A stretch of DNA of 64,000 bases from Candidatus Thorarchaeota archaeon (GTDB lineage: Archaea; Asgardarchaeota; Thorarchaeia; Thorarchaeales; Thorarchaeaceae). The notes under the pieces were generated by a model. It worked only from the letters and a program-made list of their open reading frames with translations, was not told the DNA's origin and made no database searches. The number at the start of each line of letters is the position of its first letter. The first letter of the stretch is position 1. The position numbers and the translations under genes were made by a program. The DNA lies in assembly GCA_046758445.1 (NCBI GenBank), contig JBHIAE010000001.1:114658-178657 (forward strand). Reading direction: 5' to 3'. Shown here piece by piece: positions 5,173-22,402 of the stretch.

Positions 5173-6705
5173 CTACACTTTGAGGAAAGACCCCGTCACT
5201 TCTTCTACGCTGGACACTATCTTCCCGAGGTCCATCAGCTCACGAATCCTGACAATGTCTGAACTTAGGGGTCTGTCATCTTCCAGTTTCGGAACCACAT
5301 TCCTCACAGTCGTGTATGCTTTCATCAGGGGTTCGGATGGTTTCAGTGGTGCCAAGAGATCTATCGCCTGGGCCGCACACATGTATTCAATGGCTATGAC
5401 ATTCTTCGCATTCTCAAGAATCTGTAGACCTTTCCTGGCCGCGATTGTACCCATGCTGACATGATCCTCTTGGTCTGCGCTGGTTGGTATCGAGTCTACA
5501 CTTGCAGGGTGCGCGTAAACCTTATTCTCAGAAACGAGAGCCGCGGCAGTGTATTGGGCAATCATCATTCCTGACTTGAGTCCACTCTCCTTGGTAAGAA
5601 ATGCCGGCAGGTCGCTTAGATTTGGATTTACCAGCCTGTTAATCCTTCTTTCCGAGATATTTGCCAGCTCACAAATCGCAATCCCTAGGAAGTCCAGTGC
5701 TAGTGCAACAGGTTGTCCGTGGAAGTTCCCACCAGATATTACATCTCCTTCTTTTGAGAACACCAAAGGATTGTCCGTAGCAGAGTTAATTTCAGTTTCC
5801 AGTACTCCACGTACGTAACGAATCGTATCAAGAGAGGCTCCTAACACTTGAGGAATGCATCGTAGAGAATAGGCATCTTGGACCGTTCCACAATCTGCAT
5901 GAGAACGATTGATTTCACTGTCTCTTAGGATATCGAGCATTGCCTTGGCAATGTCAATCTGTCCCTTGTGGGGACGTGTGCCGTGGATTCTCTCATCCAT
6001 TGCGGCTCGCGTTCCCCTTAGAGCTTCAAGACTCATTGCAGCAGCAACACTTGCATCTCTCATCAAGACTAGCGAATCATGAACGGCAATGGAGCCAACT
6101 GCGCACATCGGTTGTGTGCCATTGATGAGGGCAACTCCCTCTTTTGCCTCAAGAACAATCGGCTGGACGCCGGCCCGTTCCATAGCTGTTGCCCCATCGA
6201 GCTGCTCGTCCTCGAAGTAGGCCTCTCCCTCACCAATCATTACTAAGGCCATGTGTGCAAGGGGGGCGAGGTCTCCACTGGATCCTACTGACCCCTGTTG
6301 GGGGATGACTGGAACAATGTCCGAATTCAACATTTCAACCAGGGTTTCTATGACCTTCAATCGAATACCAGAGAATCCCTTTGCGAGTGCATTTGCCCTT
6401 AGAAGCATCATGCCCCTCACAATCTCTCTGGAAAAAGGTGGCCCAACTCCTGCACTGTGACTACGTATCAGATTGACTTGTAGTTGAAGGATTTCGCTTT
6501 TGTCAATTGACTCCTCGGCGAGATCCCCGAAGCCGGTGTTCACTCCATAGACGACGCGACCTTCCTTCAGTGCCTTCTCGATCACTTCTCGACTACTCCG
6601 AATTCCTTCAATTGTGGACTTAGCGAGCTTCACTGGTTCTTGATGTCTTGCGACCTTAACGACGTCGTCAACGGTGAGACTGACTCCATCAATCATTACA
6701 GTCAT
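5173..6705 (-). CDS. hutH: Histidine ammonia-lyase
   Basis: VYGVNTGFG, GSVGSSGDLAPLAH (MIO region), QDAYSLRC, GGNFHG and QEDHVSMG. Confidence 0.95.
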   Translation of the reverse strand: MTVMIDGVSLTVDDVVKVARHQEPVKLAKSTIEGIRSSREVIEKALKEGRVVYGVNTGFGDLAEESIDKSEILQLQVNLIRSHSAGVGPPFSREIVRGMMLLRANALAKGFSGIRLKVIETLVEMLNSDIVPVIPQQGSVGSSGDLAPLAHMALVMIGEGEAYFEDEQLDGATAMERAGVQPIVLEAKEGVALINGTQPMCAVGSIAVHDSLVLMRDASVAAAMSLEALRGTRAAMDERIHGTRPHKGQIDIAKAMLDILRDSEINRSHADCGTVQDAYSLRCIPQVLGASLDTIRYVRGVLETEINSATDNPLVFSKEGDVISGGNFHGQPVALALDFLGIAICELANISERRINRLVNPNLSDLPAFLTKESGLKSGMMIAQYTAAALVSENKVYAHPASVDSIPTSADQEDHVSMGTIAARKGLQILENAKNVIAIEYMCAAQAIDLLAPLKPSEPLMKAYTTVRNVVPKLEDDRPLSSDIVRIRELMDLGKIVSSVEEVTGSFLKV

Positions 6706-6881: not shown

Positions 6882-8929
6882 TTATGACCGTAGCTCATTC
6901 TTTACTAGTTCTTCTACTAGGCCGTCGGGAGGAACGAACGGAAGTGTGATGTGACCACGGCCGTCCATCAACCTGTTCCAGTCTACTGCCGTTTCAACTG
7001 CGTGTTCATTTCTGGCCCATGCTCTGCGGGCTACTCCGCCCATTACATCCCAGTCTAGCGCAGAACGAATGACAGTGTCTACTCTCTCGCTGCCATCAAG
7101 AACCAAGCCAAAACCTCCATTGATGGCCTTCCCCGTACCCACACCACCGCCGTTTGAGAGGACTGCCAGAGTCATGCCACGGGCCACATTTCCTGCCCAG
7201 CATTGGTGAGCCATGTCGCTTGTGACATTACTGCCGTCTCGAATGTTTGCGGTTTCTCTGAAGGGGGAGTCTGTGCCTCCTGTGTCATGGTGATCTCTTC
7301 CAAGCATTATAGGTCCAATCTTTCCTTCTCGCACCTCCTTGTTGAACTCTAGAGCAATATTGGCGCGTCCCTTGGCATCCGCATACAGGATTCTGGCTTG
7401 GGACCCAACTACTAGAGCATTCTTCTCAGCATCCCGAATCCAAACATAGTTGTCCCTGTCTTGGCCTCTGCCTTTCGGATCAATGCATGACATCGCTACC
7501 TTGTCAGTTTCGACCAAATCCTCGTGCTTCCCACTGAGGCATACCCATCTGAACGGTCCATACCCGTAGTCGAAGCATATTGGTCCCATGATGTCCTCGA
7601 CATAGGAAGGGAATATGAAGCCGTCATCTGTGTTCTTCCCGTTTCTCGCAATTGCCAAGACGCCTGCATCGAAGACTGCCTTCATGAAGCTGTTGCCGTA
7701 GTCCCAAAAGTGAGTGCCTCTTTTAGTCATGGTCTGGATAAGTTCGAACTGCCTACGGAGTGATTTGTCTACAAGGCTCTTGAACTCGTCACGGTCACGT
7801 TTCAATAGCTCTCTTCCCTCTTCAAATGTCACTCCTTGAGGAGTATAGCCGCCATTGTACACATCATGGCAAGATGTTTGGTCTGACGAAAGCTCGATAG
7901 GAATCTGATTGTCCACAACGTATTGCCATAGATCAACAACATTGCCAAAGTATCCTATAGAGATTGGCTCATTCTTCTCTCGGTATTCCGTGACCCACTC
8001 GAATACCTCATCGAGTTCGGCAGAATGTTTGCTGAGCCATCCTTGTTCATACCGTGTAACGATTCGACTCTTGTCAACCTCGGCGATTACTCCAATGCCG
8101 CCTGCAATCTCAATTGCCTTTGCTTGTGCACCACTCATGCCTCCCAAGCCAGAAGTAAGGAAGACCCTTCCGCTAAGGTCTTTGTCTTCTGCTATCCCCA
8201 GATAGAGTCTACCGGCATTCAGGAGTGTGATATAGGTCCCATGGACTATCCCTTGAGGACCAATGTACATCAAACCACCTGCTGTCATTTGGCCATAGTT
8301 GACTGCGGAGAGCTGGGCTGCTCGATGAAAGTCCTGAGGTGTATCAAACATACCCACCATGAGTCCATTTGTGACTATGATCCTGGGCGCATCACTGCGA
8401 GACGGGAATAGACCGAGAGGGTGACCAGAGCTCACTACAAGTGTCTGATCTGCGTTCATGGTTTCCAAGTACTTCATGATTAATCGATACTGCATCCAGC
8501 TCTGGCAGACTTGGCCGCTTTCGCCGGGCGTGATTAGAGAATCCAATCACGCTCTCCGTAAGTGACCAGCTCGTACGGATACAGGGCGACGTTGAAGTCC
8601 AAGTTGTTATCAATCATCAGCTGAAGAGCCCGTGCTTCGAGAATCCCGTGATATTGGTCGACCGGTTTTGCGACAATCCGGCCTCGGGGTCGGTATCTAT
8701 ATCCATAGATTCTTCCTCTTGTCATCAATTCAGTCAGAAACTCAGGTGCGAGGTGCTCGTGTAGTTTTGGGTGAACATACCTTAGGGCGTTCTTGACTGC
8801 AAGTATCGTGTCTTTTTCACTAAGATTGAATCCTCTATCTGGAGCTCTTCTTATCTCTGGGTCGAAGATAGGGTCGGGAGGCAGCTTATCAGATAGTTTG
8901 ATTCTCATAGCTTCAGAAGGGTCATACAT
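6882..8929 (-). CDS. hutU: Urocanate hydratase (long ~670-aa type), split by a putative 32-nt intron; exons 8929-8554 and 8521-6882
   Basis: Two track ORFs carry consecutive urocanase sequence (…LYPYELVTYGE | SGQVCQSWMQY…, YIGPQGIVHGT, GLGGMSGAQ, GRDHHD). 2048 nt minus 32 nt = 2016 nt = 671 aa plus stop. Confidence 0.93.
8522..8553 (-). other. Putative bulge-helix-bulge (BHB) mRNA intron in hutU
   Basis: Minus strand reads UGGUC-A-CUU ACGG AG^A GCGUGAUUGGA UUC UCUAAUCACGC CCGG CG^A AAG-C-GGCCA. It has an 11-bp intron stem, two 3-nt bulges, a central helix of 3 WC pairs plus A.G, and an exon-exon stem. Splicing gives TAC GGA GAA AGC GGC CAA (YGESGQ). Confidence 0.8.
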
Positions 8930-8987: not shown

Positions 8988-11900
8988 TCATGAAGATTGT
9001 TGAGCTTCCGAGTTTCCATCAGACGCGAACCTGTAACGTTTCACGATCCTACCAATTGTGGCGATGTTTCTTGAGATGCCACGAGTTCTCCATAGGTGTA
9101 GTCCGATCTGACCAGGAGATAAGCCGGACTCACTTAGCGTGCGGATTATCTCAATCTCTTGACGTGTTACTCGCTTACGTTGCGGCCTTGCTGCTAACAT
9201 ATCGCAAAGCTCCGATAGACTCTTGGTTCTGCCCAATGCGTTCCTGAAAAGCGGGAGCTGTGCTGCCCGCCTGATAGAATCGTGACGCACTATTTCGACG
9301 CCTGATGGATGTAGATAGGATTTGACACCAAGTGATTCCAAAAGGGCTTGTGTAAAAGGGCCATTCGAGATAGATGAGATTCCCGCGCGTTGAGCAACTG
9401 GAGAGGCGTAGCCATCTCCATCGGCCAATCCTTGGACGAATGCAATGCGGGACTGTTCGGATGATGCAAGAATCCAATCACCTATGAATGGCACATGGGT
9501 CTTCTTCTCACTAGGATTGAGTCCCAAAACAACCTCTCGAAACCAGACGAACAATGGGCTGGAAACAAACAGTTCCCAAACCTCGTCCTTAGACCTCTTA
9601 ATTCTCAGGATTCGATTAGGCTTCACGCGTGAAAAAACTGAAGAAACGTCATCCAAGGCCTGTTTAGACCAAGTATAGCTCTTGCTCAGGAGACCCCTTA
9701 GGGAAAAGGATGTTTTACTGGTAATTTGAACGTAACCATCTGACACGGCAAATCCTATTACATACATAAAGTCCTGGAATCTCATTCGCATCTGCCGAAG
9801 TACCCTAAGAACATCAGAAACGTTGGTGAGCGTTTCCGGAACCTCGACCCAGTCCGAGAATACTTGCCCGTCTATTCGAGTAGGCAGCCACTTCCAATTC
9901 TCGACTGGCTCCTCCCTTGGGACTCCTTGCAGTAGACGTAGTATTCTGGGCAGTCTACTTTTGGTCCAGTGATAAACAGTAGATTCGTCAAGACTCAACG
10001 CCTCCGCAATCGCCTTTTGCGATATACCTGATTCGTACATGTCTAAGAACTTGTAATACTTAGAGCATGACTCTTCAATCTCATTGTAGTTGCTCCAGCT
10101 TCTCAAATGCGGTGCGATGTAGATTCTATCCAGTAATTGCAGAACACCTTTCATTGATCCGGCTGGTACCTTCTTTCTCAGTTCTGCTACTACTTGCCTG
10201 TTTCTGGCAGCTCGTTCGATTTGTGCGCAGATCTCAGGTCTTCCTCCGTCTACGACCCATCTTCTTGCTTTGCCGGCGGATACTCCGATATCCTCCGCCG
10301 CCTTTCGAAGTTCACTCCACCTGATGGTCTTCCTACCACCAATCGCTTCGAAGAGATCTAAGTATGCTCCGAAGTCAACGATGAGCGAATCAATGTCTTC
10401 CAGTTTCGCCAATCCAGAATAGCTTTGAGAGATTGTTCCACGGAGTTGGGATACAGAGGATATCGTGAAACCGTCTATCTTGAAGTCGTGGAGATTGACT
10501 GTCAACTTCCCAGATTGAATCATACTTCTTTCAGAGTTCGGCATGGCAGCAATTCGGACTGGCCAAGGAAGAACTCCATCGACCCACCTCTTTGTTGTGG
10601 TCGGCTTTAGTCGGAGCTTGCGGTCAACATCAGACTGCAGCATTCCACTCTCAAGAAAAGACAAGGCCTCAAAGTACAGTCTTAGTCTGCTCCACTGCCT
10701 CTCAGCTGACGGCCACAGTGATATGGAATCGGAAGTCCCGGTTTCTTCCAGGATTCTGCGAACATCTTCGGCACTCTGGACATCTCCAAGCTGTTGTCGA
10801 ATATTCAAAACTCTCTCCTGATTCTTGAAGACCTCATTCAAATACCGGAAGACCGTAGGGAGTTTCCCCTTTAGGACCCAGTTCCTTGCAGTATTGGCTG
10901 ATATTCCACTTTCTTTTGCAATTGTTGAAACATCCACATCTTCAATCGGGTCTTGCTCAGAAAACGCCGACATAACTTGGAAATAGATTTGTGCCTGTTT
11001 CATCCATTTACTGAAGTTGCGGTTTTGCCTCAGTCCTGGAAACTGTCTGTCGATTATGCTTTCAAGCTGGTCATAGGATTCTATTCGTTTACTATTGAGC
11101 TCAGGCAAAAACGTCGCAAGTTGTTTCTCTCTAGTCTTCTTGGCGGCAAGTCTGCCAACCAGGGCCGGTATTCTCTCGCCGCGGAGCCAGGCCAGCACTT
11201 CATCTTCAGGAATCCTGTATTTCAGACTCAGCTCTTTGATTTGGTCATGCCTGTACCTCTCGCGGCCGTTCCGGACTATTGTGTCAAGTTCTCCTCTCTT
11301 CCTCATTGATGAGAGTTCAATCCATGCCCTTGCCTCCTCAAGTTTCTCGTTGAAGTAAACCATTTGACGAATTTCAGGATCATTCTGAGCTTCTTCCAGT
11401 TCTTCCTCCGACGTCGGATAGTCCTGTTCGAAATGAGCTCGGACTAACTGACCCATCAGCCAATCGCCCTCACGATTCAGCAGTCTCCTGAGCGCCTCGG
11501 GCATGGACCTACCTTCACTCCAGTCCCTCGCGGTGTCTTGGTCTAGGTCAAACTCCCCGGCCAGTTCCTCAATGTCTGTTTCCTCATCTCCCTGCTCTTT
11601 CAGCGCCTTTCTGAAACGAAGATAGTTCTCAACCTCTTCCATGGTCTCTTCGTCTTCAAGCATTGATTCAAGACCATGTTTCCGTGCGAGTTTCTCGAAG
11701 TCTTCTTCATCCTCTACTAGCCCTCGGAGATACTCTCTGATAGCCTCCTTCAGCTCCTCATCAAGTTCATTGAATATCTCTCGGAGATACCTCTGCCAGT
11801 CCTCATCCTCGCGCGAGTAGTGCTCTGGCCAATCCGATGATTCAGTATCACTCTCAGTCGCCTCAGAGTCCTCCTCACCCTTATCATGATTGGTCTTCTC

Positions 11901-12821
11901 TTCTGCTGATTCTGGATGCTTCTTGACGTGCTCGTACTCTTCTTTATGCAGAGATTCGCCCTGTTCAGCCCTGATACTCTCTTGCGATTTGCTATCGGGT
12001 TTCTCTTCAGATGTTTCTGTTTTGAGTTCGGAGTGTTTCCTGCTTTCCACAGATTCTTGGTCTTCAGGGTCCAAGGCCTCAGACTCTTCGGTTTCGTTCC
12101 CCCTCTCCGATAGTTCTTGTTCCTTCTCAGTCGCAGACGCACTGCCTTCGGGCAGGCCGGGTTTCTCCGACGGCTCCGTGTCTTCTTTCTGCGATTCACT
12201 TTCAGGTTCCGCTACAGTTTCGGAACCAGCGCTCTCGTTGGCGGAACTCTGTGTGGCGTACATCTGTCCGCTACCGTCATCGAAGTACGAATGATCATCC
12301 TCTGTTCTCCTCTGCCCTGTCTCTCCATCTCCCTCCTCATCGTCCCCCTCCTCCTTCCCATCAACTGATTCACCAATGTACTCCATGACGTCTTCGACGA
12401 ATTGTTCACGCCAGCGTTTCTTCATATCTTCTGGGTCCACACCTCGCTTGTCAAATTCGTCAAGGATCTTCTTCTCGAGATCGTCGTACTTCTCCTTGTC
12501 AGCAGTTTCTTCTCTCTCTCTGCGAGCCTCTTCCCTAGCTTCCTCTCTCTCTAGTTCCCTCCTTCTGTAGTCTTCATATGCCTCTCGTCTTTCCTCTTCC
12601 TCACGTTCCAGGTCCTTTACGGCATCTTTGACGGAGTCCTCGGGCTCTTCGGGATACTCTTCTCCTTCTTGCTCTTGATTCTGATGGGTTTCTTCATCTT
12701 CCCTCTCTCTCTCAATCTGGTCTATAATCTCGCGCATCTGTCGTCGAATCTCTTCTTCGTCTTGAGACTCACGCTGACCTTCTTGTCCTCGTCTGCCTCG
12801 TTCACTTCCCTCCCCCATCAT
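8988..12821 (-). CDS. 1277-aa protein: acidic low-complexity N-terminus, ~6 HTH-like repeats, double LAGLIDADG endonuclease domain, C-terminal HTH
   Basis: E/D-rich first ~370 aa; recurring HTH-W-x4/5-P units; LAGLIDADG-like motifs FMYVIGFAVSDG and IAFVQGLADGDG. Confidence 0.8.
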   Translation of the reverse strand: MMGEGSERGRRGQEGQRESQDEEEIRRQMREIIDQIEREREDEETHQNQEQEGEEYPEEPEDSVKDAVKDLEREEEERREAYEDYRRRELEREEAREEARREREETADKEKYDDLEKKILDEFDKRGVDPEDMKKRWREQFVEDVMEYIGESVDGKEEGDDEEGDGETGQRRTEDDHSYFDDGSGQMYATQSSANESAGSETVAEPESESQKEDTEPSEKPGLPEGSASATEKEQELSERGNETEESEALDPEDQESVESRKHSELKTETSEEKPDSKSQESIRAEQGESLHKEEYEHVKKHPESAEEKTNHDKGEEDSEATESDTESSDWPEHYSREDEDWQRYLREIFNELDEELKEAIREYLRGLVEDEEDFEKLARKHGLESMLEDEETMEEVENYLRFRKALKEQGDEETDIEELAGEFDLDQDTARDWSEGRSMPEALRRLLNREGDWLMGQLVRAHFEQDYPTSEEELEEAQNDPEIRQMVYFNEKLEEARAWIELSSMRKRGELDTIVRNGRERYRHDQIKELSLKYRIPEDEVLAWLRGERIPALVGRLAAKKTREKQLATFLPELNSKRIESYDQLESIIDRQFPGLRQNRNFSKWMKQAQIYFQVMSAFSEQDPIEDVDVSTIAKESGISANTARNWVLKGKLPTVFRYLNEVFKNQERVLNIRQQLGDVQSAEDVRRILEETGTSDSISLWPSAERQWSRLRLYFEALSFLESGMLQSDVDRKLRLKPTTTKRWVDGVLPWPVRIAAMPNSERSMIQSGKLTVNLHDFKIDGFTISSVSQLRGTISQSYSGLAKLEDIDSLIVDFGAYLDLFEAIGGRKTIRWSELRKAAEDIGVSAGKARRWVVDGGRPEICAQIERAARNRQVVAELRKKVPAGSMKGVLQLLDRIYIAPHLRSWSNYNEIEESCSKYYKFLDMYESGISQKAIAEALSLDESTVYHWTKSRLPRILRLLQGVPREEPVENWKWLPTRIDGQVFSDWVEVPETLTNVSDVLRVLRQMRMRFQDFMYVIGFAVSDGYVQITSKTSFSLRGLLSKSYTWSKQALDDVSSVFSRVKPNRILRIKRSKDEVWELFVSSPLFVWFREVVLGLNPSEKKTHVPFIGDWILASSEQSRIAFVQGLADGDGYASPVAQRAGISSISNGPFTQALLESLGVKSYLHPSGVEIVRHDSIRRAAQLPLFRNALGRTKSLSELCDMLAARPQRKRVTRQEIEIIRTLSESGLSPGQIGLHLWRTRGISRNIATIGRIVKRYRFASDGNSEAQQSS

Positions 12822-15800
12822 TCGCCCGTTTCTCCGTCAAGTGCCTTGGTAACATGATTGAACACATCCCGGTCCTTCTCGGTGTCAAGATATTCGAGCG
12901 CCAAGTCTAAGACGTATAGGTTTGAGAGTGAGCTTCCGCCACCATGTATCTCTGAAGTCTTGCGAATCAGTTCCGTCAGTGCACCGATGTCCTCCTTGCC
13001 TAGGTTTTCGCGGAAGTATCTCTCAAACTCTCCACTCTCGACTGCAGCCCTCATCCGTTCTCTGCTTTCCCGAGGGATTCGGTGTGACCAATCGTGATTG
13101 TCCGGCACTCTTGTAGTCGTTAGAAGGTCCATTATGTCCTCAGGCAGGGGCTCTGACTCTCGAAACTCAGGGTGCTCATCGAAGACCCTACTCATGTGAT
13201 TCTCGACGATGTCATCTCCTGTATCCTCCTCTGGAACCTCGCCATGGATGAACCATCTCAGAGGGCAAATCTTCACGTTCTTGGGTTCTCCCTCGTGCTG
13301 AAGGTATATTACTGCCTCTCCTACCTGCATTCCTCCTATGTGGTCTATCTGAGAGGCAGTACATCTGGAATGCTTACCAACCATGGTCCTATCGTCTTCG
13401 TGAGGAAGAGCATGAATCACAAGATTGACGGGTATCTTGATTGCCTGAGAAACCAACGTGCTTGGGGACTGGTCGATGAGAATCACACCAAGTCCAGTTC
13501 CTCCGAGGACTCTCAGCATCTGAATGAAGGCACTGACGGCCTGCAGCCTAACGCCTGAGTTTGCCTCTCCAGATAAGTCAGACCCACCAAGAAGGTAGTG
13601 TGCCTCCTCCAAGACGAGCAGGTTTGTGACCCTCCTTGATGGATTGGCCAGCTTGTATTCGCTCAGTGCAGCAGTCAGGACGCCAATGAGCAGGATCTTG
13701 TCGTTCTCAGACAGGTCGTCCATCTCAATGATGGTGGGATGAGCTAATAGCTCGGAAACGGTGATGCCTGTCGAAGTGTTGTACATTTTCACCAAGGAGG
13801 GTTTCCTAAGGATGCTCTTGACCCTTGCAACCAATGCGCCCCAGATATTGCTCGTGACCTCATCTCCGTAGGGCAGTTTCTCACCCACCTCTCTCACGGC
13901 ATCCACTAGGTCAGTGAGAAGAATAGGTCTGCCCTTTGTGTTGGTTTCCAAGTCCCACCCGCATTTCTTGTAGACCGTATAGATCACATCCTCGATGTGC
14001 ATGGAGATGACCTTCTCATTGGGCATCCAGAGTGTCCAGACCTGTACGACCCGGTCGACCCACTTGGTGAGCCGCACCCCCTCTGGCGGGTTCCAGATGT
14101 TGATTGAGAGGTTCGCCACATTGGTCCTTCCGCAGGTGAACACTCGGAGGTCAGGAAAGAGCTTCAGTAACCATCTCCACTCATAGCCCTTTGATGGCAC
14201 CAACACTACCGGATTCACGCCCAGAGTGATGGCCTGACCAATGATGCTCTTGACCGAGGTTGATTTACCCATTCGCGTACCACCAAGAACACCGAGATGC
14301 ATGTCCATATGGTCAGGCTCGCTTTTCACGTACACATTCGACTGGATGTTTCCGTTCTCGTCCATGGGATTTCCAAGATAGAGAGATGGTGAGCGCTTCT
14401 TCCACATGACAGTCGAGGGCACAAGCGATTCGAATGTACTTGATTGGTACATAGTAGAGCTTGCTTTCTTGGAGGGTTCCCTAGTTCCTGATGAGAACTT
14501 CTCCCTCTTTGTGGTTCTGATACCAATGTCTCTTCTGGGAAGGATGAGATAGACTGTGGCCTCTTCGGCGGTGAGAACAGACGACTTGCCAGTTGGGAGC
14601 CCATTCAGTAGTCTGGCGATCTCCTTGTCCTTTCGTCTGTAGTCAACGGTGAGCTCATCATCTCTGCTGCTGGGTCTGACCGTACCAGAGAGTGCGAAGG
14701 CGATTCGCCTGACCTCAAGGTCTGCTGAAGCAATGTCAGGGGCCCATGAAACCATTGAAACCGTCGTCTGGAACAGCTTCTGACTGGAGAGCCGTGCGTG
14801 ACGTTTCTCTAATCGCTCCGCCTCCAGTTTCGCATCCAGATTGACGACGGTCTTTGACTCTTGATGAGGTCCTGAGAACAGTCCGCCACTCTCTCTTATC
14901 TTGGTCGTCTGGGACCTCTCCTCGGCCTCTTCGTAACGGGCCTTCAGGGACCTCAACTTTCTCTTACTCACCTGAGTGGGCTCAAAAGAGACCTGAAACA
15001 CTCCCCTCTCAAGGTCCTGCAAGACTCCTGTCATGGGGTCAAGCGGGTCTTTTCTCTGTGCCTCATCCCTGACAGACAGGGGTATACCGTTGACTATTGC
15101 AGCGGAGCCCTTGTCATCCTTCGCTAGGGCGAGTCCACTGAAGGAGTCCAAAACATCAAACTTGAACCCAGACAGGTTTTCCTTGAGAGCATCGTGCATT
15201 ACAGTCCTCTGATGTTCAAGTAAGGCCTCATCCTTTGACCAAGTCAGGAAGAACACGCGTGTACGATTCCGAATGCGTTCGATACGCAGGGCGAAGGGAA
15301 CAGCTGAGAGGCTTCGGATTATGTTGTGGAACTGCTCCACCATGGTTGTCTGGTTGTTTCTTCCTTCTTCGTCGAAGGCGTAGTCGTGTGGTATCTCTTT
15401 GAGCTCAATGGCCAAGACCTTCTCCGGATCCCTCTTGAACATCATCCCACCTGTGGAGTATGATTGCATTTTATCTCCTATCGATTTCGAGGAAGTGGTG
15501 ATGAGCCCAGTTTTGGCAACGCCCGTCTTCCGACGAAGCAGAAGAGGGACGGTAAGTCCTATCATTGTCACAACTAGCACAGCAACATTGAGAGCGTTGC
15601 CAAAGAGAGGGACTGGTATCCAAGAAAGAAGGACAAGCGTCGCAAGTGCTATGCAGCCTACGCCTATCAGCAGACCAATGACTAGAGAGTAGAGCCAAGA
15701 CCGCAGGTTTTTGGTCAGTAATAGGCTACCCGCTCCAAATAGAAAGACAAATCCAACAAGAAGCAAGGCATTGCCCGTCCACTGAGATGGCACCCATGGG

Positions 15801-15910
15801 AAGAGCAGGAGCAGAAACAAGACACCGGAAGCTGGAATAACTGTCAACAGCATTAGTAACAGACCTTTGAATGCCCAAGAAACCCATGAAGATGACCTCT
15901 CATCTGTCAT
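12818..15910 (-). CDS. Membrane-anchored HerA/FtsK/VirB4-superfamily ATPase
   Basis: About 4 N-terminal hydrophobic helices, Walker A GGTRMGKS, Walker B LLVLEEAH and LIDQSP. ATGA overlap with the downstream gene. Start placed at ATG 15910. Confidence 0.85.
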   Translation of the reverse strand: MTDERSSSWVSWAFKGLLLMLLTVIPASGVLFLLLLFPWVPSQWTGNALLLVGFVFLFGAGSLLLTKNLRSWLYSLVIGLLIGVGCIALATLVLLSWIPVPLFGNALNVAVLVVTMIGLTVPLLLRRKTGVAKTGLITTSSKSIGDKMQSYSTGGMMFKRDPEKVLAIELKEIPHDYAFDEEGRNNQTTMVEQFHNIIRSLSAVPFALRIERIRNRTRVFFLTWSKDEALLEHQRTVMHDALKENLSGFKFDVLDSFSGLALAKDDKGSAAIVNGIPLSVRDEAQRKDPLDPMTGVLQDLERGVFQVSFEPTQVSKRKLRSLKARYEEAEERSQTTKIRESGGLFSGPHQESKTVVNLDAKLEAERLEKRHARLSSQKLFQTTVSMVSWAPDIASADLEVRRIAFALSGTVRPSSRDDELTVDYRRKDKEIARLLNGLPTGKSSVLTAEEATVYLILPRRDIGIRTTKREKFSSGTREPSKKASSTMYQSSTFESLVPSTVMWKKRSPSLYLGNPMDENGNIQSNVYVKSEPDHMDMHLGVLGGTRMGKSTSVKSIIGQAITLGVNPVVLVPSKGYEWRWLLKLFPDLRVFTCGRTNVANLSINIWNPPEGVRLTKWVDRVVQVWTLWMPNEKVISMHIEDVIYTVYKKCGWDLETNTKGRPILLTDLVDAVREVGEKLPYGDEVTSNIWGALVARVKSILRKPSLVKMYNTSTGITVSELLAHPTIIEMDDLSENDKILLIGVLTAALSEYKLANPSRRVTNLLVLEEAHYLLGGSDLSGEANSGVRLQAVSAFIQMLRVLGGTGLGVILIDQSPSTLVSQAIKIPVNLVIHALPHEDDRTMVGKHSRCTASQIDHIGGMQVGEAVIYLQHEGEPKNVKICPLRWFIHGEVPEEDTGDDIVENHMSRVFDEHPEFRESEPLPEDIMDLLTTTRVPDNHDWSHRIPRESRERMRAAVESGEFERYFRENLGKEDIGALTELIRKTSEIHGGGSSLSNLYVLDLALEYLDTEKDRDVFNHVTKALDGETGE

Positions 15911-15947
15911 GCACCCAACTCTCCTGGCCATTCATCCGGGTTCGGAG

Positions 15948-22374: not shown

Positions 22375-22402
22375 TTATGCAAGCAAGTACTTGCTTGCAT
22401 AA
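22375..22402. promoter_or_regulatory. Perfect 28-bp palindrome, probable TetR operator
   Basis: TTATGCAAGCAAGT/ACTTGCTTGCATAA, ending immediately before the TetR ATG at 22403 and overlapping the TATA-like TTATTAT. Confidence 0.75.

What the first reader, a model, noticed from the sequence alone, without database searches (positions are those of the whole stretch)
8512..8568. Candidate BHB (tRNA-endonuclease-type) mRNA intron in urocanase hutU
Seen: hutU is broken in a conserved block (ELVTYGE|SGQV) by a 32-nt insert. The mRNA reads UGGUC-A-CUU / ACGG / AGA / GCGUGAUUGGA-UUC-UCUAAUCACGC / CCGG / CGA / AAG-C-GGCCA. This gives an 11-bp intron stem (one G.U), a 3-nt bulge on each strand, a 4-position central helix (3 G-C pairs plus A.G), and an outer exon-exon stem with 8 of 9 positions paired. 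Established: archaeal splicing endonuclease (EndA) cuts after the second nucleotide of each bulge and RtcB ligates the ends. Applying that rule without adjustment removes 8522-8553 and gives TAC GGA GAA AGC GGC CAA (YGESGQ) and an uninterrupted 671-aa urocanase. The well-established archaeal mRNA intron is the crenarchaeal cbf5 one. Inference: this is a spliced intron in a catabolic enzyme gene of a probable Asgard archaeon, which annotation would record as a pseudogene.
Basis: partly seen in the sequence, partly recalled or inferred. Interest (0 to 1): 0.93.

Follow-up and report, generated by a model that had tools for sequence, protein, structure and literature searches.

The report
tRNA-type mini-intron in Asgard urocanase gene
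The only urocanase (histidine breakdown) gene of this Asgard (Thorarchaeota-type) archaeon is split by a 32-base hairpin shaped like a tRNA intron, which very probably has to be cut out of the mRNA. The hairpin also marks the exact edge of a block of foreign DNA that carries a homing-endonuclease-like gene, so the intron may travel with that nuclease.

Summary
hutU (minus strand) is broken by a single-copy 32-nt insert at 8522-8553. It has an 11-bp hairpin, two 3-nt bulges and a relaxed central helix (3 G-C pairs plus A.G). Cutting by the bulge-helix-bulge (BHB) rule gives an open 671-codon gene reading YGESGQ, like the intron-less orthologues.

- The same site carries a 31-32-nt insert in three other genomes of two further genera, with compensatory stem changes.
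- A second hutU site carries a 29-30-nt BHB insert in eight genomes, with strong covariation.
- All 11 intron-bearing alleles rebuilt open on rule-based excision.
- dN/dS against the intron-less sister is 0.09.
- Genes for the two subunits of the splicing endonuclease (EndA) and for the ligase RtcB are present.
- Three separately assembled samples carry the insert.

New here: the intron is the 3' edge of a horizontally replaced block. That block holds hutU exon 1 and the C-terminal half of the upstream 1277-aa ORF, which folds like the LAGLIDADG nuclease I-DmoI. Synonymous divergence from the sister jumps from 0.32 to 0.87 at the intron. The closest relatives of this nuclease lie directly upstream of hutU in two of the three other site-1 carriers. 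This looks like "collaborative homing" with a BHB intron (inferred).

The scan had already reported hutU mini-introns on other genomes, and once with this nuclease. The papers I could search document only cbf5.

The parts
8554..8929 (-). hutU exon 1: codons 1-125 plus the first base of codon 126
   Evidence: The ORF matches Urocanase_N. It is foreign relative to the sister genome G007: 68.8% nt identity and pS 0.87, against 90% and 0.32 for exon 2.
8522..8553 (-). 32-nt BHB mini-intron: the last 5' bulge base (8553), the 11-bp hairpin with UUC loop (8552-8528), the 3' strand of the central helix CCGG (8527-8524) and two 3' bulge bases (8523-8522)
   Evidence: It is single copy in the genome and present in three sample assemblies.
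8556..8559 (-). Exon strand (ACGG) of the 4-position central helix. It is followed by the 5' bulge AGA (8555-8553), with the cut after G8554.
   Evidence: It pairs with CCGG at 8527-8524 (3 G-C pairs plus A.G).
8512..8520 (-). 3' exon strand of the outer helix (AAG-C-GGCCA). It pairs with UGGUC-A-CUU at 8568-8560. The 3' bulge CGA is 8523-8521, with the cut after G8522.
6882..8521 (-). hutU exon 2 (last two bases of codon 126, codons 127-671 and the stop)
   Evidence: It carries Urocanase_N, Rossmann and C-terminal domains. It is 92% aa identical to G007.
8988..12821 (-). 1277-aa ORF ending 58 nt upstream of hutU. Residues 1 to about 563 are an acidic module. Residues from about 564 to 1277 are HTH repeats plus a double-motif LAGLIDADG domain.
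   Evidence: Pfam finds HTH_23, HTH_17 and LAGLIDADG_3. Orthologues lie directly upstream of hutU in G101 and G063. The half from about residue 560-615 onward shows no similarity to the syntenic G007 ORF.
9027..9926 (-). LAGLIDADG nuclease-like domain (residues 966-1265)
   Evidence: An alignment of 20 homologues shows two motifs with invariant Asp residues. The AlphaFold model has pLDDT 85 and pTM 0.85. Its best fold matches are LAGLIDADG homing endonucleases, including I-Tsp061I, I-DmoI and PI-PfuI.
5173..6705 (-). hutH (histidine ammonia-lyase), intact, immediately downstream of hutU on the same strand
   Evidence: Lyase_aromatic, 683 bits.

Best explanation
The 32 nt at 8522-8553 form an archaeal bulge-helix-bulge (BHB) intron inside the hutU coding sequence.

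Proposed mechanism:
1. The pre-mRNA folds so that the two exon ends pair with each other (outer helix).
2. The last full exon-1 codons (ACGG) pair with the intron's own 3' segment (CCGG), forming the central helix.
3. The intron interior forms an 11-bp hairpin.
4. The heterotetrameric splicing endonuclease (EndA alpha and beta subunits) cuts in the two 3-nt bulges, after G8554 and after G8522.
5. RtcB joins the exons to give ...UAC GGA G|AA AGC... and a 671-aa urocanase. The 32-nt intron is released, probably as a circle.
6. Unspliced mRNA ends at a UAA seven codons into the intron, giving a 131-aa fragment.

What is shown: the structure, its polarity, exact restoration of the orthologous reading frame, conservation with compensatory changes, purifying selection, presence of the enzymes, and presence of the insert in the DNA.

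What is inferred: cleavage and ligation in vivo.

A second layer is also inferred, at roughly even odds. The intron interrupts the DNA target of the adjacent free-standing LAGLIDADG nuclease, and was brought in together with that gene and exon 1 by break repair.
For: Structure and chance
- Searches give the fold (z = -4.0). One search puts the BHB conformer within 3.2 kcal/mol of the minimum free energy fold.
- The hairpin leaves 1 nt on the 5' side and 6 nt on the 3' side of the insert. That is the asymmetry a BHB intron must have. It is shared by 11 of the 12 hutU inserts found; the 29-nt G003 insert is one base shorter on the 3' side.

Polarity
- A tRNA intron of this genome has the same arrangement: CUUG UA|U ... 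CAAG AG|A, which I read as U33 and A37 before the cut.

Exact restoration
- MAFFT alignment of 19 hutU loci places a 32-nt insertion between GGA/GGC and GAG-AGC.
- The spliced product has 671 codons and no stop.

Same site in other genomes
- G101 and G099 (genus g3, 32 nt) and G063 (genus g5, 31 nt) carry an insert at the same codon. Each gives YGESGQ after rule-based excision, and each has an in-frame stop soon after the 5' cut.
- The G000 and G101 introns differ at 13 of 32 positions yet keep the stem, with two both-sided changes: G-C to A-U and U-A to C-G.

Second site in the same gene (NYGQ|MTAGG)
- Eight genomes in five genera carry 29-30-nt inserts there.
- 96.4% of cells pair; 7 pairs change on both sides; 0 of 500 shuffles reach the covariation score; slid controls pair at 29-50%.
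- One covarying pair links a synonymous Tyr codon position in the exon with an intron base.
- The 29-nt version cannot be a translated insert.

Selection and gene integrity
- All 11 intron-bearing alleles rebuilt translate without stops after excision.
- dN/dS for G000 against the intron-less sister G007 is 0.09. Polarised changes are 19N/9S on the G000 branch against 24N/11S on the G007 branch.
- Exon 1 has pN/pS of 0.16-0.22 even between carriers.
- Only one hutU match was found in the genome. An intact hutH lies directly downstream.

Machinery
- Two tRNA_int_endo ORFs and one RtcB gene are present.
- Asgard EndA is the (alpha-beta)2 type with the L1 loop, which accepts relaxed motifs (PMC5829648).
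- The cbf5 intron also often has a relaxed motif (PMC2738675).

DNA support
- Contigs from three samples carry the insert with zero differences, at depth 12.7-27. No insert-less joint was seen.
Against: There is no RNA evidence. No transcriptome run holds this locus, so neither the spliced junction nor the circular intron has been seen.

The central helix is not canonical. It has 3 G-C pairs plus A.G here, and only 2 G-C pairs flanked by A.G and G.A in G101. The thermodynamic optimum pairs the centre differently.

Site-1 covariation rests on three distinct sequences and is not statistically significant on its own.

The closest relative, G007, has no intron here. A very recent disabling insertion could therefore not be excluded from G000 alone. 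The conserved carriers in other genera are what argue against it.
Confidence: 0.85

Rival explanations
1. hutU is a pseudogene in this genome. A palindromic 32-nt insertion (a miniature mobile element, or a junction filler left by recombination) broke the gene, and nothing removes it.
For: The gene is split into two ORFs. The nearest relative G007 lacks the insert. The insert sits exactly at a recombination boundary, where junction filler could arise. No RNA data exist.
Against: - The insert is single copy, so it is not a MITE.
- A homologous insert at the same codon persists in two other genera while synonymous sites in exon 1 have saturated (pS about 0.78). Both exons stay open, with pN/pS about 0.2.
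- The stem is kept by compensatory changes.
- The 1-nt / 6-nt asymmetry of a BHB intron is present in every site-1 copy and every 30-nt site-2 copy; the 29-nt G003 copy is one base shorter on the 3' side.
- The G000 branch shows no excess of non-synonymous change.
- hutH directly downstream is intact.
Confidence: 0.07
2. The ribosome bypasses the insert, as in the translational hop of phage T4 gene 60. It would take off at GGA and land at the GGC just before GAA-AGC, giving the same protein without RNA splicing.
For: In G000, a take-off at GGA (Gly) and landing on GGC 30 nt downstream would also read Y-G-E-S-G-Q, and a hairpin lies between them (read directly from the sequence).
Against: - In G101 the same hop would give YGKS instead of the conserved YGES (sequence).
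- At site 2 the Gln codon is assembled across the junction (C|AA or C|AG) and no matching landing codon exists.
- No stop codon follows the take-off codon.
- The structure that covaries is the BHB, including exon-intron pairs.
Confidence: 0.02
3. The insert is an assembly or sequencing artefact.
For: The genome is a metagenome-assembled draft of 113 contigs.
Against: Independently built contigs from three samples carry it with no differences, at depth 12.7-27. Homologous inserts occur in other genomes.
Confidence: 0.01
4. The intron is spliced, but the neighbouring LAGLIDADG-domain ORF has nothing to do with it. On this view the ORF is a resident DNA-binding protein with a fast-evolving C-terminus, like the LAGLIDADG-derived regulator WhiA, and the divergent 5' block reflects ordinary allelic recombination.
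For: - G007 has a syntenic ORF whose N-terminal half is 76% identical, so the ORF as a whole is not newly inserted in G000.
- The protein is very large and rich in HTH repeats, which is unusual for a homing endonuclease.
- WhiA is among the fold matches.
- G099 has the intron without the ORF.
- Seven of eight site-2 carriers have no recognisable nuclease gene nearby.
Against: - The three hutU-adjacent copies are each other's closest relatives (61% and 49% identity, against 31-37% for the 17 other homologues aligned).
- Adjacency to hutU is seen in 3 of 4 site-1 carriers and in only 1 of the 76 other genomes with hutU.
- Both predicted metal-binding Asp residues are invariant in 20 of 20 homologues.
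- The divergence boundary falls on the carrier's own intron site in G000, G101 and G014, while intron-less pairs are flat.
- G101 keeps a displaced remnant of the old hutU start upstream of the ORF.
Confidence: 0.4

Closest known systems
BHB intron in the cbf5 (pseudouridine synthase) pre-mRNA of Crenarchaeota (Watanabe 2002; Yokobori 2009, PMC2738675)
   Same: It is a short intron inside an archaeal coding sequence. [quoted passage not shown] Its distribution is patchy, with gain and loss among relatives.
   Different: The lineage is different (Asgard, Thorarchaeota type). The host is a catabolic enzyme gene rather than an RNA-modification gene. There are two separate intron positions in one gene. 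Here the intron coincides with a recombination boundary and a neighbouring LAGLIDADG gene. Splicing of cbf5 was shown experimentally; here it is inferred.
BHB intron in the 5' UTR of HVO_1309 mRNA of Haloferax volcanii (PMC7714728)
   Same: It is an mRNA substrate of the archaeal splicing endonuclease outside tRNA and rRNA.
   Different: It lies in the untranslated leader, so the reading frame does not depend on it.
Archaeal rRNA BHB introns that encode LAGLIDADG homing endonucleases (I-DmoI, I-Tsp061I; PDB 2vs7, 2dch)
   Same: A BHB-type intron is paired with a double-motif LAGLIDADG enzyme. Those enzymes are among the best fold matches of the ORF next to hutU.
   Different: In those cases the nuclease gene sits inside a long intron in an rRNA gene. 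Here the intron is 32 nt and ORF-less, the host is a protein gene, and the nuclease-like gene is free-standing about 0.45 kb upstream.
[quoted passage not shown]
   Same: A nuclease gene lies next to the host gene, and an ORF-less intron sits at the presumed target site. The flanking exon is co-converted together with the nuclease gene.
   Different: The intron there is a self-splicing group I ribozyme in phage genes, and its target was shown biochemically. Here the intron depends on host tRNA-splicing enzymes, the host is a cellular archaeon, and the target is only inferred.
Mini-introns of about 30 nt in tRNA genes of Asgard archaea (preprint 10.64898/2026.10.13.758758)
   Same: The size class, hairpin shape and presumed enzymes are the same. 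About half of the tRNA genes ARAGORN finds here are interrupted.
   Different: Those introns are in tRNA genes. The preprint does not mention introns in mRNA or protein-coding genes.

Membership tests
Archaeal BHB intron (EndA substrate) | Two 3-nt bulges on opposite strands separated by a 4-bp helix, with the 5' bulge on the inner side and the 3' bulge on the outer side | tested here: met
   AGA and CGA are separated by ACGG/CCGG. The polarity matches a tRNA intron of the same genome. The motif is relaxed: 3 Watson-Crick pairs plus A.G, and the strict conformer lies 3.2 kcal/mol above the minimum free energy fold.
Archaeal BHB intron (EndA substrate) | Flanking helices on both sides: an exon-exon helix and an intron hairpin | tested here: met
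   The outer helix has 8 of 9 positions paired and the hairpin has 11 bp.
Archaeal BHB intron (EndA substrate) | Cutting after the second base of each bulge gives the functional joined sequence | tested here: met
   The result is 671 open codons reading YGESGQ, identical in length to the intron-less orthologues. The same holds for all 11 carrier alleles rebuilt, at both sites.
Archaeal BHB intron (EndA substrate) | The structure is conserved by compensatory change | tested here: inconclusive
   At site 1, two both-sided changes occur among three distinct sequences, which is not significant alone. At site 2 of the same gene the signal is clear: 7 pairs change on both sides and 0 of 500 shuffles reach the score.
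Archaeal BHB intron (EndA substrate) | The host encodes the splicing endonuclease and the RtcB ligase | tested here: met
   Two PF01974 ORFs and one PF01139 ORF score above the family cut-offs.
Archaeal BHB intron (EndA substrate) | The intron is removed from the RNA in vivo or in vitro | not testable with these tools
   No RNA run holds the locus.
Urocanase (HutU) | Urocanase N-terminal, Rossmann-like and C-terminal domains in order | tested here: met
   Pfam finds PF17391 split across the two ORFs (profile positions 3-44 and 36-126), then PF01175 and PF17392.
LAGLIDADG homing endonuclease | Two LAGLIDADG helices ending in conserved acidic residues, and the alpha-beta-beta-alpha-beta-beta-alpha fold | tested here: met
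   Motifs LLGxxxSDG and FLQGxADGDG have invariant Asp in 20 of 20 homologues. The model (pLDDT 85) matches I-DmoI, I-Tsp061I, PI-PfuI and PI-SceI at Foldseek probability 1.00, with TM-score up to 0.67 on the target. Pfam LAGLIDADG_3 scores 31.5 bits against a cut-off of 22.5.
LAGLIDADG homing endonuclease | Site-specific DNA cleavage of alleles that lack the element | not testable with these tools
   This needs a biochemical assay.
LAGLIDADG homing endonuclease | The gene is housed inside an intron or intein | tested here: not met
   It is a free-standing ORF whose stop codon lies 58 nt upstream of the hutU start. Free-standing homing endonucleases are known in other families (PMC3984707).
Collaborative homing unit (free-standing nuclease plus ORF-less intron) | The nuclease gene lies next to the intron-bearing gene and is inherited with the intron and the flanking exon | tested here: met
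   Orthologous ORFs lie directly upstream of hutU in G000, G101 and G063. The foreign block ends at the intron: pS is 0.87 against 0.32 and 0.92 against 0.19, and the sliding-window jump falls at nt column 378. G101 keeps a displaced remnant of hutU aa 3-93.
Collaborative homing unit (free-standing nuclease plus ORF-less intron) | The nuclease target equals the intron insertion site | not testable with these tools
   This is inferred only from the recombination boundary.
Miniature transposable element or IS insertion | Multiple copies in the genome and target-site duplication | tested here: not met
   There is one copy at up to 3 mismatches. The partial repeat CGG-G at the ends arises because the central helix is nearly palindromic, and it is absent at site 2.

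The most novel reading that the evidence does not exclude
The 32-nt BHB mini-intron is the immunity half of a two-part mobile unit. A free-standing I-DmoI-like LAGLIDADG nuclease (the C-terminal module of the ORF at 8988-12821) would cut intron-less hutU at the VTYGE|SGQ codons. Repair from a carrier would copy the nuclease module, hutU exon 1 and the intron. The intron then breaks the DNA target while host tRNA-splicing enzymes erase it from the mRNA. That would be collaborative homing built on an enzyme-spliced intron in a cellular protein gene of an Asgard archaeon. It would also be a concrete route by which introns invade protein-coding genes. The shared context of the two hutU intron sites (UUAYGGAN^ARA) would then reflect nuclease target similarity.
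Probability: 0.5. Interest if true: 0.92.

Novelty: new variant of a known kind. Interest (0 to 1): 0.82.

Why it matters
In the papers I could search, enzyme-spliced (tRNA-type) introns inside archaeal coding sequences are documented for a single gene, cbf5. One further case lies in a 5' UTR.

Here a metabolic gene of an Asgard archaeon, from the archaeal group closest to eukaryotes, depends on such an intron. The same gene has a second intron site in relatives. The scan has noted similar inserts in other genes of this genome. If splicing is confirmed, three things follow:
- Annotation pipelines are miscalling working genes as pseudogenes across this lineage.
- mRNA splicing by the tRNA machinery is a regular feature of these cells.
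- The sharp recombination boundary at the intron, next to a homing-endonuclease-like gene, gives a testable mechanism for how introns enter and spread in protein-coding genes.

Tried and rejected
Genome-wide motif scans
- Scans for BHB geometry based on pair counts, with or without an ORF-fusion test, gave as many hits on the reversed-sequence control as on the real genome (5346 vs 5372; 12821 vs 13010; 63 vs 71 after the ORF test). They cannot count introns.
- The best other candidates were adjacent separate genes or unconvincing. At C33 they are a methyltransferase and a 2Fe-2S ferredoxin. C9 and C23 were unconvincing. At window 22377-22398 a palindrome lies at a stop/start overlap.
- These scans also missed the ahcY and SOR inserts that I could see directly.

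RNA evidence
- No RNA holder is listed for this stretch.
- The exact 34-nt pattern was not found in metagenome contigs.

tRNA intron comparison
- ARAGORN plus my simple BHB finder is noisy on tRNA genes. I used only one clean example.

Nuclease domain
- The single-sequence AlphaFold model was poor (pLDDT 40).
- A sequence search of the PDB found nothing significant.
- An alignment-based model was needed.

Site-2 carriers
- ORFs next to hutU in G014, G003 and G017 have no Pfam or PHROG match and are unrelated to each other. I found no nuclease partner for site 2 except in G094.

G000 paralogues
- The surroundings of the paralogues of the big ORF (contigs C84, C51) gave no clear intron-bearing neighbour.

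Other readings considered and rejected
- Frameshifting or stop-codon readthrough would insert 10-11 residues into a conserved block. Neither can explain the 29-nt site-2 allele.
- The break in G060 hutU is a 1-nt frameshift, not an intron.
Full report
**1. What is in the sequence**

hutU lies on the minus strand and is split into two ORFs. ORF 8534..8929 (131 aa) matches Urocanase_N profile positions 3-44. ORF 6882..8546 (554 aa) matches Urocanase_N positions 36-126, then the Rossmann-like and C-terminal domains.

Between the two ORFs the mRNA reads UGGUC-A-CUU / ACGG / AGA / GCGUGAUUGGA-UUC-UCUAAUCACGC / CCGG / CGA / AAG-C-GGCCA.

The 71-nt stretch folds at -31.0 kcal/mol, against -18.8 +/- 3.0 for shuffles (z = -4.0). 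Deleting 8553..8522 gives 2016 nt, which is 671 codons plus the stop, with no internal stop, reading LVTYGESGQV.

The arrangement has the correct polarity for an archaeal splicing substrate. The order is exon helix, 4-position helix whose 5' strand is exon, 3-nt bulge, intron hairpin, 3' strand of the 4-position helix inside the intron, 3-nt bulge, exon helix. A tRNA intron of the same genome shows the same order: CUUG UA|U ... CAAG AG|A, which I read as U33 and A37 before the cut.

The central helix is relaxed, with three G-C pairs and an A.G. The strict bulge-helix-bulge (BHB) conformer lies 3.2 kcal/mol above the thermodynamic optimum. The site-2 introns show a similar gap.

**2. Not an artefact, not a repeat**

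The hairpin core is unique in the window and in the 3.25-Mb, 113-contig genome at up to three mismatches.

Contigs built separately from three samples of one hydrothermal-vent study carry the insert with no differences, at depth 12.7-27. These samples are probably the source of this genome. No contig joins across the insert.

**3. Comparative evidence for splicing**

Among 86 genomes of the same family, 80 have hutU. Most read straight through this site, including the closest relative G007.

Three others do not. G101 and G099 (another genus, 32 nt) and G063 (a third genus, 31 nt) carry an insert at the same codon.
- In each, cutting after the second base of each bulge gives YGESGQ.
- In each, an in-frame stop follows the 5' cut within a few codons.
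- The G000 and G101 introns differ at 13 of 32 positions but keep the stem, with two both-sided changes.
- With only three distinct sequences this is not significant by itself.

The same gene has a second intron site, NYGQ|MTAGG. It is occupied by 30-nt inserts in seven genomes and a 29-nt insert in one, across five genera. There the evidence is strong:
- 96.4% of cells pair.
- Seven pairs change on both sides.
- No shuffle out of 500 reaches the covariation score.
- Slid controls pair at 29-50%.
- One covarying pair links the synonymous third position of the exon Tyr codon (C/U) with an intron base (G/A).

All eleven intron-bearing alleles rebuilt translate into full-length proteins without stops once the rule-defined intron is removed.

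**4. The gene is alive**

- dN/dS between G000 and G007 is 0.09. Changes polarised with outgroups are 19 non-synonymous and 9 synonymous on the G000 branch, against 24 and 11 on the G007 branch.
- Only one hutU match was found in the genome.
- An intact histidine ammonia-lyase gene follows hutU on the same strand.

**5. The machinery is there**

The genome encodes two tRNA-intron-endonuclease ORFs, consistent with alpha and beta subunits, and one RtcB.

Published work assigns Asgard archaea the (alpha-beta)2 enzyme with the L1 loop, the type that accepts relaxed motifs (PMC5829648). The one established coding-sequence intron, in cbf5, also often has a relaxed motif (PMC2738675).

About half of the tRNA genes that ARAGORN finds here are interrupted, many by inserts of about 30 nt.

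I confirmed that the ahcY and superoxide reductase genes of this genome are also interrupted by inserts of about 30 nt, as earlier notes of the scan said. I did not analyse them further.

**6. The unexpected part: the intron is a recombination boundary**

In a hutU protein tree, every site-1 carrier has an intron-less sister with 99-100% support: G000/G007, G101/G018 and G063/G020.

Identity to the sister is sharply discontinuous at the intron:

| Pair | Exon 1 nt identity | Exon 2 nt identity | Exon 1 pS | Exon 2 pS |
|---|---|---|---|---|
| G000 / G007 | 68.8% | 90.0% | 0.87 | 0.32 |
| G101 / G018 | 67.2% | 93.5% | 0.92 | 0.19 |

In 60-nt windows the jump from 60-75% to 90-98% falls at nucleotide column 360-390. 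The intron site is column 378.

For the site-2 carrier G014 against its sister G001, the jump falls at site 2 instead: 72-74% upstream and 95.7% downstream. Pairs without introns are flat.

Exon 1 stays under purifying selection in all comparisons, including between carriers (pN/pS 0.16-0.22). That only makes sense if exon 1 is joined to exon 2.

**7. What lies in the replaced block**

Immediately upstream of hutU, with its stop 58 nt before the hutU start, is a 1277-aa ORF (8988..12821). It has HTH repeats and a LAGLIDADG_3 domain.

- Its N-terminal half (residues 17-615) is 76% identical to a syntenic ORF in G007, which also follows a HerA-like gene. After that point similarity vanishes. The divergent block therefore runs from about residue 560-615 of this ORF to the intron, roughly 2.5-2.6 kb.
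- The closest homologues of the C-terminal half are the ORFs directly upstream of hutU in G101 (59%) and G063 (44%). Both are site-1 carriers.
- In an alignment of 20 C-terminal domains, these two are 61% and 49% identical to G000, and all others 31-37%.
- Among the 76 other genomes with hutU, only G094 has a homologue next to hutU. G094 is a site-2 carrier; its homologue is 33% identical and has an in-frame TAG.
- G101 retains a displaced remnant of hutU residues 3-93 upstream of the ORF.
- G099 has the intron, but an unrelated 1.27 kb replaces the ORF.

The alignment shows two LAGLIDADG motifs with invariant Asp residues. A model built on it (pLDDT 85, pTM 0.85) matches LAGLIDADG homing endonucleases. 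These include the archaeal intron-encoded I-Tsp061I and I-DmoI, with TM-score up to 0.67 on the target and rmsd about 4 angstroms.

**8. Reading**

The first layer is well supported: this is a BHB intron that must be removed by EndA and RtcB for urocanase to be made.

The second layer is inferred, and I give it about even odds. [quoted passage not shown] This mirrors the "collaborative homing" described for ORF-less group I introns and free-standing endonucleases in phages (PMC3984707). Here it would use an intron that relies on host tRNA-splicing enzymes.

The two hutU intron sites share the spliced context UUAYGGAN^ARA. There are two possible reasons:
- The intron carries one strand of the central helix and needs ACGG in the exon.
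- The nuclease has a similar target at both sites.

Points against the second layer:
- The ORF has a resident-looking N-terminal half.
- It is very large for a homing endonuclease.
- G099 lacks it.
- Most site-2 carriers have no recognisable partner.

**9. Rivals**

- A dead gene is unlikely, given conservation across genera with open frames and purifying selection.
- A ribosomal hop from GGA to GGC would give the same protein in G000. It fails in G101, where it would give K instead of E, and at site 2.
- Frameshifting or readthrough cannot explain the 29-nt allele.
- An artefact is excluded by three assemblies.

**10. Novelty**

The papers I could search document endonuclease-spliced introns in archaeal mRNA only for the cbf5 coding sequence in Crenarchaeota and for one 5' UTR in Haloferax. 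A 2026 preprint on Asgard tRNA introns does not mention protein-coding genes.

The scan itself had already reported hutU mini-introns, mostly at site 2, on several other Thorarchaeota genomes. In one other genome it had reported the association of a 32-nt hutU intron with a LAGLIDADG ORF.

What this report adds:
- the G000 case;
- the family-wide distribution of both sites;
- the quantitative boundary analysis;
- fold-level identification of the nuclease domain.

Noticed in passing
window 8988-12821 (-) and 12818-15931 (-): A HerA-like (DUF87) ORF is followed by a 1277-aa ORF. That ORF has a glutamate-rich N-terminal half (about 560 aa) that is conserved in G007 (76%) and has paralogues in G000 (C84, 48%), fused to a variable C-terminal half of HTH repeats plus LAGLIDADG. 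Homologues of the C-terminal module are multi-copy in 38 of 86 family genomes.
   Followed up: partly
window 22377-22398 (+): A perfect 22-nt palindrome (TGCAAGCAAGTACTTGCTTGCA) sits at the end of one ORF, just before an overlapping stop/start (TAAATGA). My BHB scan flagged it, but it reads as two adjacent genes, not an intron.
   Followed up: partly
L046:1820-2370 (G101, upstream of its LAGLIDADG ORF): A displaced remnant of hutU residues 3-93, in two frames, lies between the conserved 197-aa neighbour gene and the LAGLIDADG ORF. It looks like the old gene start left behind when the nuclease, exon 1 and intron block came in.
   Followed up: partly
L048:1769-3936 (G094): A LAGLIDADG/HTH ORF (33% identical to the G000 module) lies directly upstream of a hutU that carries the site-2 intron. 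It is split into 174-aa and 558-aa frames and has an in-frame TAG. It could be a decayed or differently targeted partner for site 2.
   Followed up: no
L052:314-1213 (G014) compared with L059 (G001): The site-2 carrier G014 has a 300-aa ORF of no known family on the opposite strand between the conserved 204-aa neighbour gene and hutU. It is absent in the intron-less sister G001. The whole hutU 5' part up to site 2 is foreign in G014 (72-74% against 95.7% identity).
   Followed up: partly
L033:~880-900 (G060 hutU): hutU of G060 has a single extra T (CCG-T-TCT) that shifts the frame near residue 162. This is a sequencing error or a real frameshift, not an intron.
   Followed up: no
G000 C4:19183-20459 (+) and C68:4443-4808 (-): The ahcY and superoxide reductase genes of the same genome are each interrupted by an insert of about 30 nt (a frame change in ahcY, an in-frame TGA in SOR). 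The ahcY hairpin also has a UUC loop.
   Followed up: partly
L026 (G063 site-1 intron) and L010 (G014 site-2 intron): The two introns share the core UAG(C)AUUUC(G)CUAAA although they sit at different sites. This hints that introns at the two hutU sites are related, for example by transposition between similar targets.
   Followed up: no
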